From the sequence record OP870145.1: 64,000 nucleotides of DNA; one strand, 5' to 3'. Below the pieces are notes generated by a model. The model worked only from the letters and a program-made list of their open reading frames with translations. It did no database searches and was not told the origin of the DNA. Source of the stretch: Escherichia phage vB_Eco_F26. This document shows positions 2,278 to 11,015 of the stretch, one piece after another; positions within the stretch are counted from its first letter, which is position 1; each line of letters opens with the position of its first letter. Position numbers and translations under genes: made by a program.

Positions 2278-2580
2278 TTATTTACCTTTAATTACTTTAG
2301 CTGCTTCGATAGCCGCTTGCTGAAGGTCATCCATAGACATACCGAATTTAGAAGCAAAGTTATCAATTTTCTTTTCGACAGCATTCAAAGGCTTGGCCTG
2401 TTTACCTTCATTAGCGCCAGGAAGAGCGAGAATACGCTCTTTGTCAATATAAAGGCTTACAAGTTTCTTACGGTCTTTATCGGACAAATCATGAAATGAA
2501 TGGGCCTTTTTATTTATAGCGGCTTCTAATTTACCTGCACTCACTCGCGCTTCAGTAATAAATTCTTGATATGTTTTCAT
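2278..2580 (-). CDS. internal protein (IP) family, 100 aa, with capsid-targeting sequence
   Basis: N-terminus MKTYQEFITEA is the T-even IP capsid-targeting sequence ending in an I-x-E prohead-protease site; size and position next to e resemble T4 ipII. Confidence 0.75.
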   Translation of the reverse strand: MKTYQEFITEARVSAGKLEAAINKKAHSFHDLSDKDRKKLVSLYIDKERILALPGANEGKQAKPLNAVEKKIDNFASKFGMSMDDLQQAAIEAAKVIKGK

Positions 2581-2634
2581 ATGTTTCCTTTAAATATTTT
2601 AATTAATAATTTATCTATTCAAGTAACTGTGAAT

Positions 2635-2664
2635 ATACTATCACAATTCTAGGAGAAAGTAAAC
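2635..2664 (-). promoter_or_regulatory. T4 early-type promoter for IP gene (GTTTAC -35 / TAGTAT -10)
   Basis: Minus-strand motif about 55 nt upstream of ATG 2580. Confidence 0.45.
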
Positions 2665-2668
2665 AACT

Positions 2669-3163
2669 TTATAGATTTTTATACGCGTCCCAAGTGCCAG
2701 TTCTAAACGTGGCAATGACTCGTTTTGCGCGATTAGGTGTTTGATTATACCATTTACTTTTAGCTAAGTTAACTGCTGCTTCATCCCAGCGTTTTTGTTG
2801 GAGCATACGTAAAGAGTTAGTAAATCCTGCTACGCCAGTTTCTCCCATTTGGAAGACCATATTAATCAATGCACAACGACGAACCGCATCAAGAGAATCA
2901 TAAACCGGTTTTAATTTAGCATTTCTCAAAATTCCACGAACAGCAGCATCAACATCCTGATTAAAGAGTTTTTCAGCCTCATCTTTTGTAATTACACCAT
3001 TGCAATTACGCCCAATAGCTTTATCTAATTCAGATTTAGCAACGCTTAGTGATGGACTTTTTGTAAGCAAATGACCGATGCCAATAGTGTAATAGCCTTC
3101 TGTGTCTTTATAGATTTTAAGTCTAATACCTTCATCTATACGTAACATTTCAAATATATTCAT
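2669..3163 (-). CDS. e: lysozyme (endolysin), T4 e
   Basis: 164 aa, matches T4 lysozyme from recall with a few substitutions ([12 protein letters not shown]...[10 protein letters not shown]). Confidence 0.97.
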
Positions 3164-3167
3164 AATA

Positions 3168-3189
3168 CCTCCTAAGTATTTATAGAAGG
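3168..3189 (-). promoter_or_regulatory. late promoter TATAAATA overlapping an SD-sequestering hairpin upstream of e
   Basis: Minus strand CCTTCTATAAATACTTAGGAGG: TATAAATA 13 nt before ATG; CCTTCTA can pair with TAGGAGG, as in the known T4 e early-transcript hairpin. Confidence 0.55.
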
Positions 3190-3199
3190 TATTTATAAA

Positions 3200-3655
3200 T
3201 TAAAAGAGGCTGTTCATTATTCGGTAAAGTGAAGGACCCATCACGTATTGCCACTGAGTACGAGGAATAAGAGCAAAAGCGTCCATCTCTGGAATCATAA
3301 CACCATCTTTATTTTCAAAATAAGACTCACAATAGCAATTTCTGAACATCTCATGCTCTACTGGAATCGTATAATAAAATAACTGTAAGTCTTTATTACT
3401 AGAATATTTAAATACACCTAGGTCTTCTAGAAGGTCTGGATTATAATTGCTAAAACCGGTCTCTTCTAAACATTCTCTTCGTGCTGCATCTAGTGCACTT
3501 AAATCAGAATTTTCTACACGGCCCTTTGGAATATCCCAGCGATGTGCCATCATTCCAGGCTTACGAGAACCAGTAACCCGACCCATAAATAAATCTTTAT
3601 CTTCTGTCATGAAGATAATACCAGCTGATAATGTTTTCATTTTAATTTCCTGCAA
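3200..3655 (-). CDS. nudE: Nudix hydrolase NudE (e.1)
   Basis: 151 aa; Nudix box-like GRVENSDLSALDAARRECLEETGF; position next to e as in T4. Confidence 0.85.
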   Translation of the reverse strand: MQEIKMKTLSAGIIFMTEDKDLFMGRVTGSRKPGMMAHRWDIPKGRVENSDLSALDAARRECLEETGFSNYNPDLLEDLGVFKYSSNKDLQLFYYTIPVEHEMFRNCYCESYFENKDGVMIPEMDAFALIPRTQWQYVMGPSLYRIMNSLF

Positions 3656-3999
3656 TCACTCACAAACTCTTTCATTGATTCATTTTCAATATAAGACATG
3701 TAGCTATTATATTCTTTTAATTGTATTTTGTAATCCTTTTTTCTTTGCCAATTTATTTTAAAATTATCATAATGAAAATATAGCATGGTACCAAAGAATG
3801 AAAATAATGAAATAATTTTAGTATAGCGAAGTTCACTCCAAACTTCTATTATATTTACTGTGCCGTCGATGTTTAAAATAAGACAGTCAATTAATAATCC
3901 AAAAAGACTACCCGCAAGAGCTGCAGCCAACGCCACAGCAAAAATTAAAAATGACTCAGGAAGCGAATATTTGACTTTATTTAGTTTTGGCTTTTGCAT
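3637..3999 (-). CDS. small membrane protein (120 aa)
   Basis: ORF with hydrophobic segment LIFAVALAAALAGSLFGLLIDCLIL. Confidence 0.55.
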   Translation of the reverse strand: MQKPKLNKVKYSLPESFLIFAVALAAALAGSLFGLLIDCLILNIDGTVNIIEVWSELRYTKIISLFSFFGTMLYFHYDNFKINWQRKKDYKIQLKEYNSYMSYIENESMKEFVSDCRKLK

Positions 4000-4394
4000 C
4001 GTGATTCCTTAACAAATTTCATAATTTCATCAAATTCATACGCAGCAAGTTTAAGCTGATGTTCCTTTTTAATCTTTTTACACTGTGCTTTCCAATCACG
4101 TACGCGTTTACGATAATGCCTTCCTTGATACCAGTATCCTACCCAATTTACAGGTACTAATAAAAGTGGAACTATTAATGGAAGAATTAGCATTAACACA
4201 AGTATTTCGCCAGAATCAATATCAGTCATAACATCTAAAACACCTCCAATAATCAATAGAATTACAAATGATATGAGTATAACAGGACCTATTAATACAT
4301 CAGTAGGAATTAGCTGGCGCTTTGATTCATACTTCAAAGGTTTACTTGGAAGGTATAGTGATGGCTTTGACATATTCTCTACATTCCTTAACAA
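3981..4394 (-). CDS. membrane protein (about 130 aa; start may be ATG at 4373)
   Basis: ORF with two hydrophobic helices (VLIGPVILISFVILLIIGGVL, ILVLMLILPLIVPLLLVPV). Confidence 0.55.
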   Translation of the reverse strand: MLRNVENMSKPSLYLPSKPLKYESKRQLIPTDVLIGPVILISFVILLIIGGVLDVMTDIDSGEILVLMLILPLIVPLLLVPVNWVGYWYQGRHYRKRVRDWKAQCKKIKKEHQLKLAAYEFDEIMKFVKESRCKSQN

Positions 4395-9951: not shown

Positions 9952-9956
9952 AAATT

Positions 9957-10043
9957 TGGTGCGAGAAGTGGGACTCGAACCCACAAGGAAATCATTCCGC
10001 AGCATTTTAAGTGCTGTGCCTTTACCAATTTGACCATTCTCGC
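9957..10043 (-). tRNA. tRNA-Leu (anticodon TAA), long variable arm
   Basis: Acceptor GCGAGAA/TTCTCGC, anticodon stem CAGCA/TGCTG with loop CTTAAAA, T-loop TTCGAGT, CCA. Confidence 0.7.
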
Positions 10044-10044
10044 G

Positions 10045-10117
10045 CTGGGAATAAAGGACTCGAACCTTTGCATCTAGCAGTCAAAGTGCTATGCCTTACC
10101 AACTTGGCTAATTCCCA
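10045..10117 (-). tRNA. tRNA-Gln (anticodon TTG), CCA not encoded
   Basis: Acceptor TGGGAAT/ATTCCCA, anticodon stem TAGCA/TGCTA with loop CTTTGAC, T-loop TTCGAGT; abuts tRNA-Leu as in the T4 Gln-Leu dimer. Confidence 0.7.
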
Positions 10118-10214
10118 ATTATTAACAAAGGCTCTCAAACAAGAACCCTTGATGATAGAGGGTATTAATCAGTGCGGTATGAGTTAATAATAACAAATAA
10201 TTCTTAAAGCATAT

Positions 10215-10508
10215 TTACCATTTATGATGATACATACTTACGATGCATTCAAGACCTAAAGGATTCTTGAAAATATCATATTCAAGAGGACCTTTTTCTG
10301 TTTCAATAAAGAAATCAAAATTTACTGTATTAAATTTACGGTCTTCCTTTACTAATTTAACTTGAGAAGATGAACGGTCAATGTAAACCTTTTCAACTTC
10401 AAAACACGTTAAAATGCCATAATCATCAATCAAGGCTTTAGCTGCTTCTTGATCATATTTATATCCATTTTCAATGGATGATACTTTAGCATAAAGAATC
10501 ATTATCAA
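10215..10508 (-). CDS. hypothetical protein (97 aa)
   Basis: ORF. Confidence 0.5.
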   Translation of the reverse strand: MIMILYAKVSSIENGYKYDQEAAKALIDDYGILTCFEVEKVYIDRSSSQVKLVKEDRKFNTVNFDFFIETEKGPLEYDIFKNPLGLECIVSMYHHKW

Positions 10509-10687
10509 CCTTTAGAAATTTTATCCATAACGATAGCAATTAAACCAATTAAAAATGCTACTACAAGTGAAAACACATTTTCTGCTGTAGTTAATAATCC
10601 ACATATAAATCCAACAAACATTGAAAAGCTAAATGCAGAAGCAGAAATTGCAATAGCAACATTTCGAATTAATTCACAACGTTTCAT
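10505..10687 (-). CDS. small membrane protein (60 aa)
   Basis: ORF with two hydrophobic stretches; early promoter upstream. Confidence 0.45.
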   Translation of the reverse strand: MKRCELIRNVAIAISASAFSFSMFVGFICGLLTTAENVFSLVVAFLIGLIAIVMDKISKG

Positions 10688-10715
10688 TTTATTCTCCTCG
10701 GTAGTTGATAGGGTA

Positions 10716-10745
10716 ATAGTATCACAACTAAAACCCTATGTAAAC
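10716..10745 (-). promoter_or_regulatory. T4 early-type promoter (GTTTAC -35, 18-nt spacer, TACTAT -10)
   Basis: Minus strand GATTTAAAATAATTTCACAAAGTTGTTTACAT...TACTAT; the 32-nt upstream block is identical to that at 11046..11100. Confidence 0.5.
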
Positions 10746-10757
10746 AACTTTGTGAAA

Positions 10758-11015
10758 TTATTTTAAATCTTCTAATCGTTTCTTCATCTTAGAACCATTT
10801 TTAGCGATTTCGCCTGCATCAGAGCATAATGCTAAAAGCGCTTTAACTTTAGTTTGGTCTCCTTTAAAAGATGAAGGATCGACTGCAGCAGCAAGTTCTT
10901 TAATACGAGAGAAAAGACGCTCAGCTTCAGCTAAAGCCATTCCAAGCTTTACTTCCATACCGTGTGAAGATTCAGTGATAGTAGTTTTTGTAGCAAACTC
11001 TTTGAAAGTTTTCAT
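10758..11015 (-). CDS. internal protein (IP) family, 85 aa, at the ipI position next to 57B
   Basis: N-terminus MKTFKEFATKTTITE (CTS-like, I-T-E protease site); early promoter upstream. Confidence 0.7.
   Translation of the reverse strand: MKTFKEFATKTTITESSHGMEVKLGMALAEAERLFSRIKELAAAVDPSSFKGDQTKVKALLALCSDAGEIAKNGSKMKKRLEDLK

What the first reader, a model, noticed from the sequence alone, without database searches (positions are those of the whole stretch)
2278..11015. Four dispersed genes carry T-even capsid-targeting sequences: candidate injected anti-defence proteins
ORFs 2278..2580 (MKTYQEFITEA), 6727..7290 (MKTYAEFLTEA), 7552..7887 (MKSYAQFLNEA) and 10758..11015 (MKTFKEFATKTTITE) all begin with the ~10-residue capsid-targeting sequence ending in an (I/L)-x-E prohead-protease site, the signature of T4 internal proteins IPI/II/III. 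Their bodies are unrelated to each other. In T-even phages such proteins are packaged in the head, injected with the DNA, and at least T4 IPI inhibits a host type IV restriction system. Each has its own early promoter, and two lie in the variable e-to-tRNA interval rather than at the T4 ipII/ipIII position. These are strong candidates for uncharacterised injected counter-defence factors.
Basis: partly seen in the sequence, partly recalled or inferred. Interest (0 to 1): 0.58.

Follow-up and report, generated by a model that had tools for sequence, protein, structure and literature searches.

The report
T4-type internal proteins, two unannotated
The four genes do encode T4-style "internal proteins" that are packed into the phage head and injected with the DNA. 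One is the known restriction inhibitor IPII, one is the long-named Ip5, and the other two are unannotated proteins at a third locus, one of them broken by a frameshift.

Summary
The window is a Tequatrovirus genome; three of its proteins match Escherichia phage vB_Eco_F26 exactly. Four minus-strand ORFs, and no others in 64 kb, start with MK[ST][YF]x[EQ]F followed by an (I/L)xE protease site (0 in 200 shuffles).

- **2278-2580** is IPII, 93% identical to T4 IPII. Its target is published: a GmrSD/BrxU type IV restriction enzyme.
- **10758-11015** is Ip5, 100% identical to RB15 Ip5, named in 1994. Its target is unknown.
- **6727-7290 (p187)** and **7552-7887 (p111)** are called "hypothetical" in every record listed, out of 164 and 511 matching records. 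They sit in cassettes bounded by terminator hairpins, between e.8 and rnaC, where T4 has no gene. This is a third ip locus.
- **p111** is a frameshifted copy (A7 to A6) of a 157-aa protein. A homolog of that protein was found in purified fD1 virions.

Only ipII and ip5 have early-type promoters. p111 has a late promoter, and p187 has no canonical one.

No fold or sequence relative points to a function for p187 or the 157-aa protein.

One unexpected lead: the p187 homolog of phage Bas37 is scored "Essential" in a transposon screen.

Verdict: new members of a known kind, of modest interest.

The parts
2278..2580 (-). ipII, the internal protein II precursor (100 aa). The leader MKTYQEFITE is cut after E10, giving a mature protein of 9.8 kDa, pI 9.7.
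   Evidence: 93% identical over the full length to T4 IPII. phrog_7857 'internal virion protein', E 4.5e-55. 197 phage records hold a match. dN/dS against T4 is about 0.35.
2633..2664 (-). T4 early-type promoter in front of ipII (GTTTAC, then 18 nt, then TGATAGTAT). In T4 this same sequence precedes ipIII.
   Evidence: Read from the sequence. The same promoter cassette recurs directly downstream of ipII at about 2240-2275. This fits loss of ipIII and denV by recombination between repeated promoter and leader modules.
6727..7290 (-). p187, an unannotated protein with a capsid-targeting leader (187 aa). The leader MKTYAEFLTE is cut before A11, giving a mature protein of 19.7 kDa, pI 9.5.
   Evidence: phrog_2280, function unknown. 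164 phage records match; every one listed calls it 'hypothetical'. Only close homologs exist, plus one 30%-identical relative with an MITFNEFLNE leader. The AF2 model has a three-helix N-domain, a disordered Pro/Ala/Lys linker and a two-helix hairpin. No PDB match by fold or sequence. dN/dS is 0.11-0.19.
7552..7887 (-). p111, the truncated product of the 157-aa gene (RB32ORF132c family). It keeps the leader MKSYAQFLNE|A, the N-terminal domain and the linker, and loses the C-terminal hairpin.
   Evidence: Alignment with G50 and vB_VIPECOOM01 shows a single A missing from an A7 run. The full-length protein matches 511 phage records, and every one listed calls it 'hypothetical'. The AF2 model of the full-length mature form has mean pLDDT 82.
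7415..7551 (-). The rest of the ancestral 157-codon reading frame, now out of frame but still free of stop codons.
   Evidence: Translated in the old frame it reads IVKGIIAKYEAILKELLVIKTEGQKLARAYSFKDNPHVHSLEYVEDIQKIIKDRIWSAKQIK. The old stop codon is at 7415-7417.
7605..7610 (-). The A6 run, which is A7 in intact alleles. This is the frameshift site.
   Evidence: None of 335 GenBank phage records has the window's exact 81-nt stretch, and the best 17 differ only by one extra base. A6 and A8 alleles recur in several lineages.
7928..7935 (-). Canonical T4 late promoter TATAAATA, 48 nt upstream of the p111/p157 start codon.
   Evidence: Conserved at -46 to -48 in G50, vB_VIPECOOM01 and Bas37.
7942..7965 (-). 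Terminator hairpin at the upstream edge of the p157 cassette.
   Evidence: It is 97% identical to the copy at 7384-7407.
7384..7407 (-). Terminator hairpin between the p157 and p187 cassettes.
   Evidence: T4 has a single copy of this hairpin at the empty site.
6700..6718 (-). Terminator hairpin downstream of p187.
   Evidence: It is duplicated at 6350-6368 by the 350-bp tandem duplication.
10758..11015 (-). ip5, the internal protein Ip5 precursor (85 aa). The leader MKTFKEFATKTTITE is cut before S16, giving a mature protein of 7.5 kDa, pI 9.2.
   Evidence: 100% identical to RB15 Ip5 (Z35082). Near-identical (96.5-98.8%) in T2 and RB51, and the exact sequence is named Ip5 in UniRef (Q38630_BPT6). 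phrog_3499 'internal head protein', E 1.2e-49. It occupies the T4 ipI position between 57B and trna.4.
11046..11074 (-). T4 early-type promoter in front of ip5 (TTTACA, 17 nt, TACTAT, with an upstream TG). In T4 the same sequence precedes ipI.
   Evidence: An identical cassette recurs downstream of ip5 at 10716-10744.

Best explanation
The window is a T4-like (Tequatrovirus) genome, and the four ORFs are members of the T-even internal-protein class.

**Proposed mechanism**
- Each protein is made as a precursor whose first 10-15 residues form the capsid-targeting sequence.
- That leader brings the protein into the scaffolding core of the assembling prohead.
- The gp21 prohead protease cuts after the Glu of the (I/L)xE site.
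- The small basic mature protein stays with the packaged DNA and is injected with it.
- Being present before any phage gene is expressed, it can block host nucleases that attack glucosyl-hydroxymethylcytosine DNA.

**What each gene is**
- 2278-2580 is IPII. By orthology to T4 Ip2 it most likely inhibits the ECOR21-type single-chain GmrSD/BrxU enzyme.
- 10758-11015 is Ip5, with no known target.
- 6727-7290 (p187) and 7552-7887 (a frameshifted 157-aa gene) are unannotated internal proteins. They sit in two cassettes bounded by terminator hairpins, inserted between e.8 and rnaC. This is a third ip locus beside the two recognised ones.

**Cassette turnover**
Repeated promoter-plus-leader modules at the ipI and ipII/III loci, and repeated terminator hairpins at the third locus, give the homology through which cassettes are gained and lost.

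**Shown versus inferred**
- Shown here: the motifs, gene identities, locus structure, frameshift and promoters.
- Taken from the literature: packaging and the target of T4 IPII, and virion association of a p157 homolog.
- Inferred: packaging of p187 and Ip5 in this phage, and any anti-defence activity of p187, p157 and Ip5.
For: **Genome identity**
- 95-98% nucleotide identity to Tequatrovirus genomes. T4 gene order e, nudE, e.2-e.8, tRNAs, 57B, 57A, 1, 3.

**Leader and protein properties**
- The leader motif is unique to these four ORF starts. The protease site and basic mature forms match T4 IPI*, IPII* and IPIII*.
- IPII is 93% identical to T4 IPII, and Ip5 is 100% identical to RB15 Ip5.
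- All four are under purifying selection, with dN/dS from 0 to 0.35.
- The leader persists in diverged relatives of p157 (MKTYNEFLNE, MLEYSEFLKE, MKFKEFLAE) and of p187 (MITFNEFLNE).
- The known prohead-core protein gp67 in the same window carries a similar FLYE|A start, which serves as an internal control.

**Expression and virion data**
- A conserved late promoter precedes p157.

**Class function**
- Ip1, Ip2 and Ip3 each block one GmrSD variant (PMC12373910). IPIII works without its leader when supplied in the cytoplasm. Bas37_0260 blocks McrBC.
- Disruption of Ip5 in Bas37 lowers fitness about fourfold on UPEC CFT073 (log2FC -2.09, adjusted p 0). CFT073 encodes a GmrSD homolog.

**Locus structure**
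- Cassette boundaries and the T4 empty site are shown.
Against: - There is no direct evidence that p187 is in virions or is cleaved.
- The fD1 particle-associated list also contains clearly non-structural proteins (DenV, lysozyme, NudE), so it is not specific.
- ip4-10, which include ip5, gave no reproducible inhibition of any of the GmrSD groups tested.
- The p187 homolog of Bas37 is scored 'Essential' on E. coli K-12 (1 of 48 TA sites hit). That is not what an accessory counter-defence gene should look like.
- p187 has no canonical early or late promoter.
- p111 is truncated here and may be non-functional.
- Fold searches of p187 and p157 found no relative that indicates a function.
Confidence: 0.8

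Rival explanations
1. p187, and perhaps p157, is mainly a structural or assembly component of the head interior, such as a core or scaffold accessory or a DNA-charge-neutralising protein, and not an anti-defence factor. It would be targeted and processed in the same way, but needed for making viable particles.
For: [quoted passage not shown] Its neighbours on both sides tolerate insertions, and it is single-copy in that genome.
- Mature p187 is 19.7 kDa with pI 9.5, very close to IPIII* (20.4 kDa, pI 9.65).
- It is tightly conserved (95-99% identity in 158 of 164 records), unlike a fast-evolving arms-race gene.
Against: - T4, RB51 and many other Tequatroviruses lack the gene and make normal heads. 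It is found in only 164 records, against 511 for p157.
- T4 deleted for ipII and ipIII is viable (strain eG192).
- The authors do not discuss the 'Essential' call. It could reflect a deletion in the stock used, or an unidentified K-12 defence.
Confidence: 0.15
2. The leader on p187 and p157 is only a recombination footprint. The shared 5' module was copied along with a promoter or ribosome-binding cassette, and the proteins act in the cytoplasm without being packaged.
For: - The 5' ends of the p187 and p157 genes share a 42-nt stretch at 76% identity that spans the ribosome-binding site and leader (family D3).
- Promoter-plus-leader modules are clearly reused at the other ip loci.
- IPIII works when supplied without its leader.
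Against: - The leader is kept at the protein level in relatives whose sequence has diverged strongly.
- The protease site is always retained.
- p157 has a late promoter, which fits incorporation into the prohead.
- A p157 homolog was detected in purified virions.
Confidence: 0.05
3. The 7552-7887 ORF is an artefact or a pseudogene. The A6 run would be a homopolymer sequencing error, or a recent inactivating mutation, and not a functional short form.
For: - None of 335 GenBank phage records shares the window's exact 81-nt stretch, and the closest 17 differ only by one extra A.
- The old C-terminal frame is still completely open.
- The same record carries a perfect 350-bp tandem duplication that could also be an assembly problem.
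Against: - Truncating A6 and A8 alleles at this same run occur in at least six protein clusters from independent genomes and assemblies. Examples are SfPhi01, G28 and T4_ev240, and some clusters are seen on 6-9 contigs.
- All of these alleles keep the well-folded N-terminal domain.
Confidence: 0.5

Closest known systems
T4 internal protein II (IPII/Ip2), phrog_7857
   Same: 2278-2580 has the same length (100 aa), is 93% identical, has the same leader and cleavage site, and has an early-type promoter. T4 Ip2 inhibits GmrSD of ECOR21, a BrxU-type type IV restriction enzyme.
   Different: There are seven substitutions. Here the gene lies directly next to e, behind what is the ipIII promoter in T4, because ipIII and denV are missing. 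Whether target specificity is retained was not tested.
Ip5 of RB15, T2, T6, RB70 and RB51 (Repoila et al. 1994), phrog_3499
   Same: 10758-11015 is 100% identical to RB15 Ip5. It sits at the ipI locus between 57B and trna.4, behind the ipI-type early promoter.
   Different: It resembles T4 IPI only in the leader. No target is known. As one of ip4-10 it gave no reproducible GmrSD inhibition. A mild fitness effect on CFT073 is the only phenotype on record.
T4 IPIII (Ip3)
   Same: p187 has a similar leader, a similar mature size (19.7 against 20.4 kDa) and a similar pI (9.5 against 9.65).
   Different: There is no sequence similarity beyond the leader. The locus is different, and no early promoter of the ipIII type is present. 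IPIII itself is absent from the window.
Bas37_0260, the McrBC inhibitor at the ipI locus (HIDEN-SEQ preprint)
   Same: It is a newly recognised protein with a capsid-targeting leader, no homology to Ip1-3, and a demonstrated type IV restriction target. It is the model for what p187 and p157 may turn out to be.
   Different: That gene (77 aa, phrog_8111) is absent from this window. Here ip5 is followed directly by trna.4.
T4 prohead-core proteins gp67 and gp68
   Same: gp67 in this window (52500-52730) starts MLLGFKQFLYE|A, a related targeting and cleavage motif.
   Different: gp67 belongs to the conserved head-gene cluster. It is not a variable cassette gene.

Membership tests
T-even internal proteins (CTS-targeted, gp21-processed, injected) | An N-terminal capsid-targeting sequence of the MKTYQEFIAE type, at residue 1 | tested here: met
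   All four ORFs have it, and only these four in 64 kb. The reference sequence MKTYQEFIAE appears in the T4 literature and in T4 IPII and IPIII.
T-even internal proteins (CTS-targeted, gp21-processed, injected) | A prohead-protease site (I/L)-x-E at the end of the leader | tested here: met
   ITE|A, LTE|A, LNE|A and ITE|S. That (I/L)xE is the gp21 consensus rests on established T4 knowledge.
T-even internal proteins (CTS-targeted, gp21-processed, injected) | A small, basic mature protein | tested here: met
   7.5-19.7 kDa, pI 9.2-9.7. T4 IPI*, IPII* and IPIII* have pI 9.0-9.65.
T-even internal proteins (CTS-targeted, gp21-processed, injected) | Encoded at one of the two recognised ip loci (ipI locus, or the ipII/ipIII locus next to e) | tested here: not met
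   Met for IPII and Ip5. Not met for p187 and p111, which lie between e.8 and rnaC. The literature speaks of two ip loci. Location is a habit of the family and not part of the mechanism.
T-even internal proteins (CTS-targeted, gp21-processed, injected) | Physically present in the virion in processed form | not testable with these tools
   Literature only. IPII is established for T4. The fD1 homolog of p157 is listed as particle-associated, but the list is not specific. Nothing is on record for p187.
T-even internal proteins (CTS-targeted, gp21-processed, injected) | Injected with the DNA, and inhibits a host type IV restriction enzyme | not testable with these tools
   Shown for T4 Ip1-3 and Bas37_0260. 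Inferred by orthology for IPII here. Unknown for Ip5, p187 and p157.
IPII (phrog_7857) | Full-length sequence homology to T4 IPII | tested here: met
   93% identity over 100 of 100 residues. PHROG E-value 4.5e-55.
Ip5 (phrog_3499) | Full-length sequence homology to Ip5 of RB15 or T6 | tested here: met
   100% identity to RB15 Ip5. The exact sequence is named Ip5 in UniRef, Q38630_BPT6.
phrog_2280 (function unknown) | A match to the family profile | tested here: met
   p187 scores E 8e-53 over profile positions 1-177 of 178. p111 scores E 2e-37 over positions 1-93.
phrog_2280 (function unknown) | p187 and p157 are homologous to each other beyond the leader | tested here: inconclusive
   hhalign without leaders gives probability 2%, E 0.02. 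BLASTP finds only the leader. The AF2 models share one architecture: a three-helix domain, a Pro/Ala/Lys linker and a two-helix hairpin.

The most novel reading that the evidence does not exclude
p187 may not be an ordinary dispensable internal protein. In the phages that carry it, it may be required for growth even on E. coli K-12. There are two possible reasons. It could be a head-internal component these phages have come to depend on. Or it could neutralise a K-12 factor other than McrA, McrBC, Mrr or EcoKI. Either way it would be the first essential cassette-borne protein with a capsid-targeting leader, and it would mark a third ip locus that current surveys of ip1-10 have missed.
Probability: 0.2. 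Interest if true: 0.6.

Novelty: new member of a known kind. Interest (0 to 1): 0.35.

Why it matters
Injected internal proteins are the first phage products to meet host immunity. Each one characterised so far has turned out to be a specific inhibitor of a type IV restriction enzyme.

The recent functional screen covered ip1-10, and that paper describes the ip genes as lying at two loci. Two further leader-bearing proteins are present in 164 and 511 sequenced phages. Every record listed calls them 'hypothetical', and they lie at a third locus. They are cheap, well-defined additions to such screens.

The unexplained 'Essential' score of the p187 homolog in Bas37 gives a concrete reason to test that gene first.

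For annotation, the N-terminal motif plus the (I/L)xE site would let these genes be labelled as putative internal virion proteins.

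Tried and rejected
**Searches that gave no functional lead**
- Pfam: nothing above threshold for any of the four.
- PDB sequence search: nothing for any of the four.
- Foldseek of the p187 and p157 models against PDB: no hit with E below 0.1, only generic helical hairpins.
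- Foldseek of p187 against BFVD: only uncharacterised T4-like phage proteins, including RB69ORF149c.
- Exhaustive HMMER search of mature p187 against 1.84 billion representatives: only its own cluster, fragments, and one 30%-identical relative.

**Checks that were uninformative**
- Profile-profile comparison of the p187 and p157 families without leaders: not significant. I do not claim they are paralogs, although PHROGs lumps them.
- IMG/VR scans for A6, A7 and A8 alleles of the frameshift site: only 3 hits, all A7.
- Rfam on 1-12000: only the ten tRNAs.
- Papers on fHe-Yen9-01 and fPS-65/90 held no usable virion proteome.
- Repoila et al. 1994 is not held in the library. What I say about it rests on GenBank and UniProt names and on papers that cite it.

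**Ideas rejected**
- That p187 replaces IPIII: vB_VIPECOOM01 has both.
- That the Bas37 'Essential' call is a multi-mapping artefact: the gene is single-copy there.
- That it is a polar effect: all downstream genes tolerate insertions.

Full report
**1. What the window is**

Bases 2000-11600 match more than a thousand Tequatrovirus and related records at 95-98% identity. The best matches are vB_VIPECOOM01 and vB_EcoM_G50. Gene order is that of T4: vs.8, e, nudE, e.2-e.6, e.8, a tRNA cluster, trna.2, trna.4, 57B, 57A, 1, 3. Exact protein look-ups find three of the window's proteins in Escherichia phage vB_Eco_F26, as F26_0134, F26_0135 and F26_0136.

**2. The observation**

All four ORFs exist as described, on the minus strand. 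A six-frame scan for MK[ST][YF]x[EQ]F finds exactly these four in 64 kb, each at an ORF start. The motif occurs 0 times in 200 shuffles.

Each leader ends in an (I/L)xE site. For the first three this is at residue 10: ITE|A, LTE|A and LNE|A. For the fourth it is at residue 15 (ITE|S), which parallels the 19-residue leader of T4 IPI. The predicted mature proteins are 7.5-19.7 kDa with pI 9.2-9.7. The T4 values are 9.0-9.65.

A looser motif also picks up gp67, a known prohead-core protein, at 52500-52730 (MLLGFKQFLYE|A). This is a useful internal control.

**3. Identity of each gene**

- **2278-2580 is ipII.** It is 93% identical over all 100 residues to T4 IPII, and hits phrog_7857 at E 4.5e-55.
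- **10758-11015 is ip5.** It is 100% identical to Ip5 of RB15 (GenBank Z35082) and near-identical (96.5-98.8%) in T2 and RB51. UniRef names the exact sequence Ip5 (Q38630_BPT6). It occupies the T4 ipI position.
- **6727-7290 (p187)** hits phrog_2280, a family of unknown function. 164 phage records match, and every one listed calls it 'hypothetical'.
- **7552-7887 (p111)** aligns base for base with a 157-codon gene of G50 and vB_VIPECOOM01, except that an A7 run is A6 here, at window 7605-7610. The product has 94 native residues and a 17-residue foreign tail. The full-length protein (RB32ORF132c in RB51) matches 511 phage records. Every listed record and every named cluster member calls it 'hypothetical'.

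**4. Locus anatomy**

*The e locus.* The window lacks ipIII and denV. The sequence upstream of ipII is what precedes ipIII in T4. The same promoter module recurs just downstream of ipII. This points to deletion by recombination between repeated promoter-plus-leader modules.

*The ipI locus.* The module TTTCACAAAGTTGTTTACAT...GTGATACTATTA flanks ip5 on both sides.

*The third locus.* Relative to T4, about 1.56 kb is inserted between e.8 and rnaC. Homologs of rnaC and rnaD lie at 8016-8154 and 8161-8277. The insert holds a p187 cassette, a p157 cassette and one copy of the 350-bp duplication. The p157 cassette lies between two 97%-identical terminator hairpins, and a different hairpin follows p187. 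T4 has one hairpin at the empty site. RB51's annotators had noted the flanking repeat of the p157 gene.

**5. Promoters**

- ipII and ip5 have T4 early-type promoters (GTTTAC, 17-18 nt, TG-n-TA..AT).
- p157/p111 has a canonical late promoter, TATAAATA, 48 nt upstream. It is conserved in three other phages.
- p187 has neither type. There is only a conserved AATAAATA at about -50.
- Late promoters upstream of e and inside gene 1 could supply late transcripts for ipII and ip5. This last point is inference.

**6. Are the genes real and constrained?**

dN/dS against relatives is 0.11-0.19 for p187, 0.02-0.07 for the N-terminal part of p157, 0 for ip5 and 0.35 for ipII.

The leader survives in diverged relatives of p157 (MKTYNEFLNE, MLEYSEFLKE, MKFKEFLAE). 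It also survives in the one distant relative of p187, which is 30% identical, starts MITFNEFLNE, and sits on a T4-like contig.

**7. Homology and structure of the two unannotated proteins**

p187 has only close homologs (88% identity or more) plus that single distant relative, among 5.8 billion clusters and 1.84 billion representatives.

AlphaFold models give both proteins the same plan: a three-helix N-terminal domain, a Pro/Ala/Lys-rich linker and a two-helix hairpin. Mean pLDDT is 70 for mature p187 and 82 for mature p157.

Sequence profiles without the leader are not significantly similar (hhalign probability 2%). No PDB fold or sequence relative exists. BFVD returns only uncharacterised T4-like phage proteins.

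The frameshift in p111 falls at the start of the hairpin, so the N-domain and linker are retained.

**8. What the literature says**

- T-even internal proteins are described as a diverse set of injected defence proteins that share only the capsid-targeting leader (PMC3012670).
- IPIII is needed on ECOR17, and works without its leader when supplied in the cytoplasm (PMC9391042).
- Ip1, Ip2 and Ip3 each inhibit one specific GmrSD enzyme. Ten ip genes (ip1-10) were tested against further GmrSD groups, with no new reproducible interaction. That paper speaks of two ip loci (PMC12373910).
- The p187 and p157 leaders do not occur in that paper's supplementary text.
- In Bas37 (KarlGJung), bas37_0260 at the ipI locus inhibits McrBC. 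That gene is absent from this window.

From the same preprint's tables:
- bas37_0261 (Ip5) is non-essential, but is depleted about fourfold on UPEC CFT073 (log2FC -2.09, adjusted p 0). CFT073 has a GmrSD homolog.
- bas37_0244 (p157) is non-essential.
- bas37_0243 (p187, 97% identical) is 'Essential', with 1 of 48 TA sites hit. The authors do not comment on this.

In the fD1 virion proteome, g140 (the p157 homolog) is listed as particle-associated. So are DenV, lysozyme and NudE, so the list is not specific.

**9. Assessment**

The class assignment is well supported for all four genes. It rests on direct orthology for two and on motif, charge, late promoter and partial proteomic support for the other two.

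The interpretation as uncharacterised counter-defence candidates is outdated for IPII and only partly apt for Ip5. It is reasonable but unproven for p187 and p157.

The real additions are three:
- a third ip locus holding two unannotated members;
- the frameshift, which turns out to be one case of a recurrent A-run polymorphism;
- the unexplained essentiality score of the p187 homolog.

Noticed in passing
window 6114-6813: A perfect 350-bp tandem duplication (6114-6463 equals 6464-6813). It joins the first 12 codons of e.8 to the last 28 codons of p187, creating the 40-aa hybrid ORF 6377-6499. That ORF is annotated in GenBank as F26_0134. The duplication is absent from G50, vB_VIPECOOM01, Bas37 and T4. 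It may be a recent duplication or an assembly artefact.
   Followed up: partly
window 7605-7610, and protein clusters P0017, P0019, P0020, P0061, P0076, P0078: The A7 run in the 157-aa gene is a recurrent indel site. A6 alleles give products of 108-111 aa, and A8 alleles give products of 93-97 aa. They occur in several sequence lineages and independent assemblies, and all keep the N-terminal domain. This could be a slippage-prone contingency site or a homopolymer sequencing error.
   Followed up: partly
Bas37 (MZ501089) bas37_0243; L005:5529-6092: The 97%-identical homolog of p187 is scored 'Essential' in the HIDEN-SEQ reference library (1 of 48 TA sites hit), while all neighbouring genes tolerate insertions. 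The preprint does not discuss it.
   Followed up: partly
window 2165-2700: denV and ipIII are missing between vs.8 and e, and neither is found anywhere else in the 64-kb window. ipII sits behind the promoter that precedes ipIII in T4, and the same promoter module recurs downstream of ipII. This fits deletion by recombination between repeated modules.
   Followed up: partly
window 9172-9657 (-): A 161-aa ORF lies inside the tRNA cluster, between tRNA-Met and tRNA-Ser, where G50 has tRNA-Thr. vB_VIPECOOM01 has the same ORF (phrog_16521). It is probably a homing-endonuclease-type insertion. T4 segB, trna.3 and e.7 are absent from the window.
   Followed up: no
window 52500-52730 (+): A 76-aa ORF starting MLLGFKQFLYE|A, recalled from memory (not tested here) as the prohead-core protein gp67, carries a leader-like motif with the same protease site. 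It shows the motif family extends to core proteins.
   Followed up: no
window 8016-8277 (-): Homologs of the T4 small stable RNAs rnaC (98% identical) and rnaD (93% identical) are present. No Rfam family detects them at gathering threshold.
   Followed up: partly
Bas37 bas37_0239 and bas37_0240; window 4342-4950 and 4992-5585 (-): The e.5 and e.6 homologs of Bas37 are strongly depleted on UPEC CFT073 in HIDEN-SEQ (log2FC -3.6 and -6.5). This suggests these neighbours of the third ip locus are conditionally required host-range genes.
   Followed up: no
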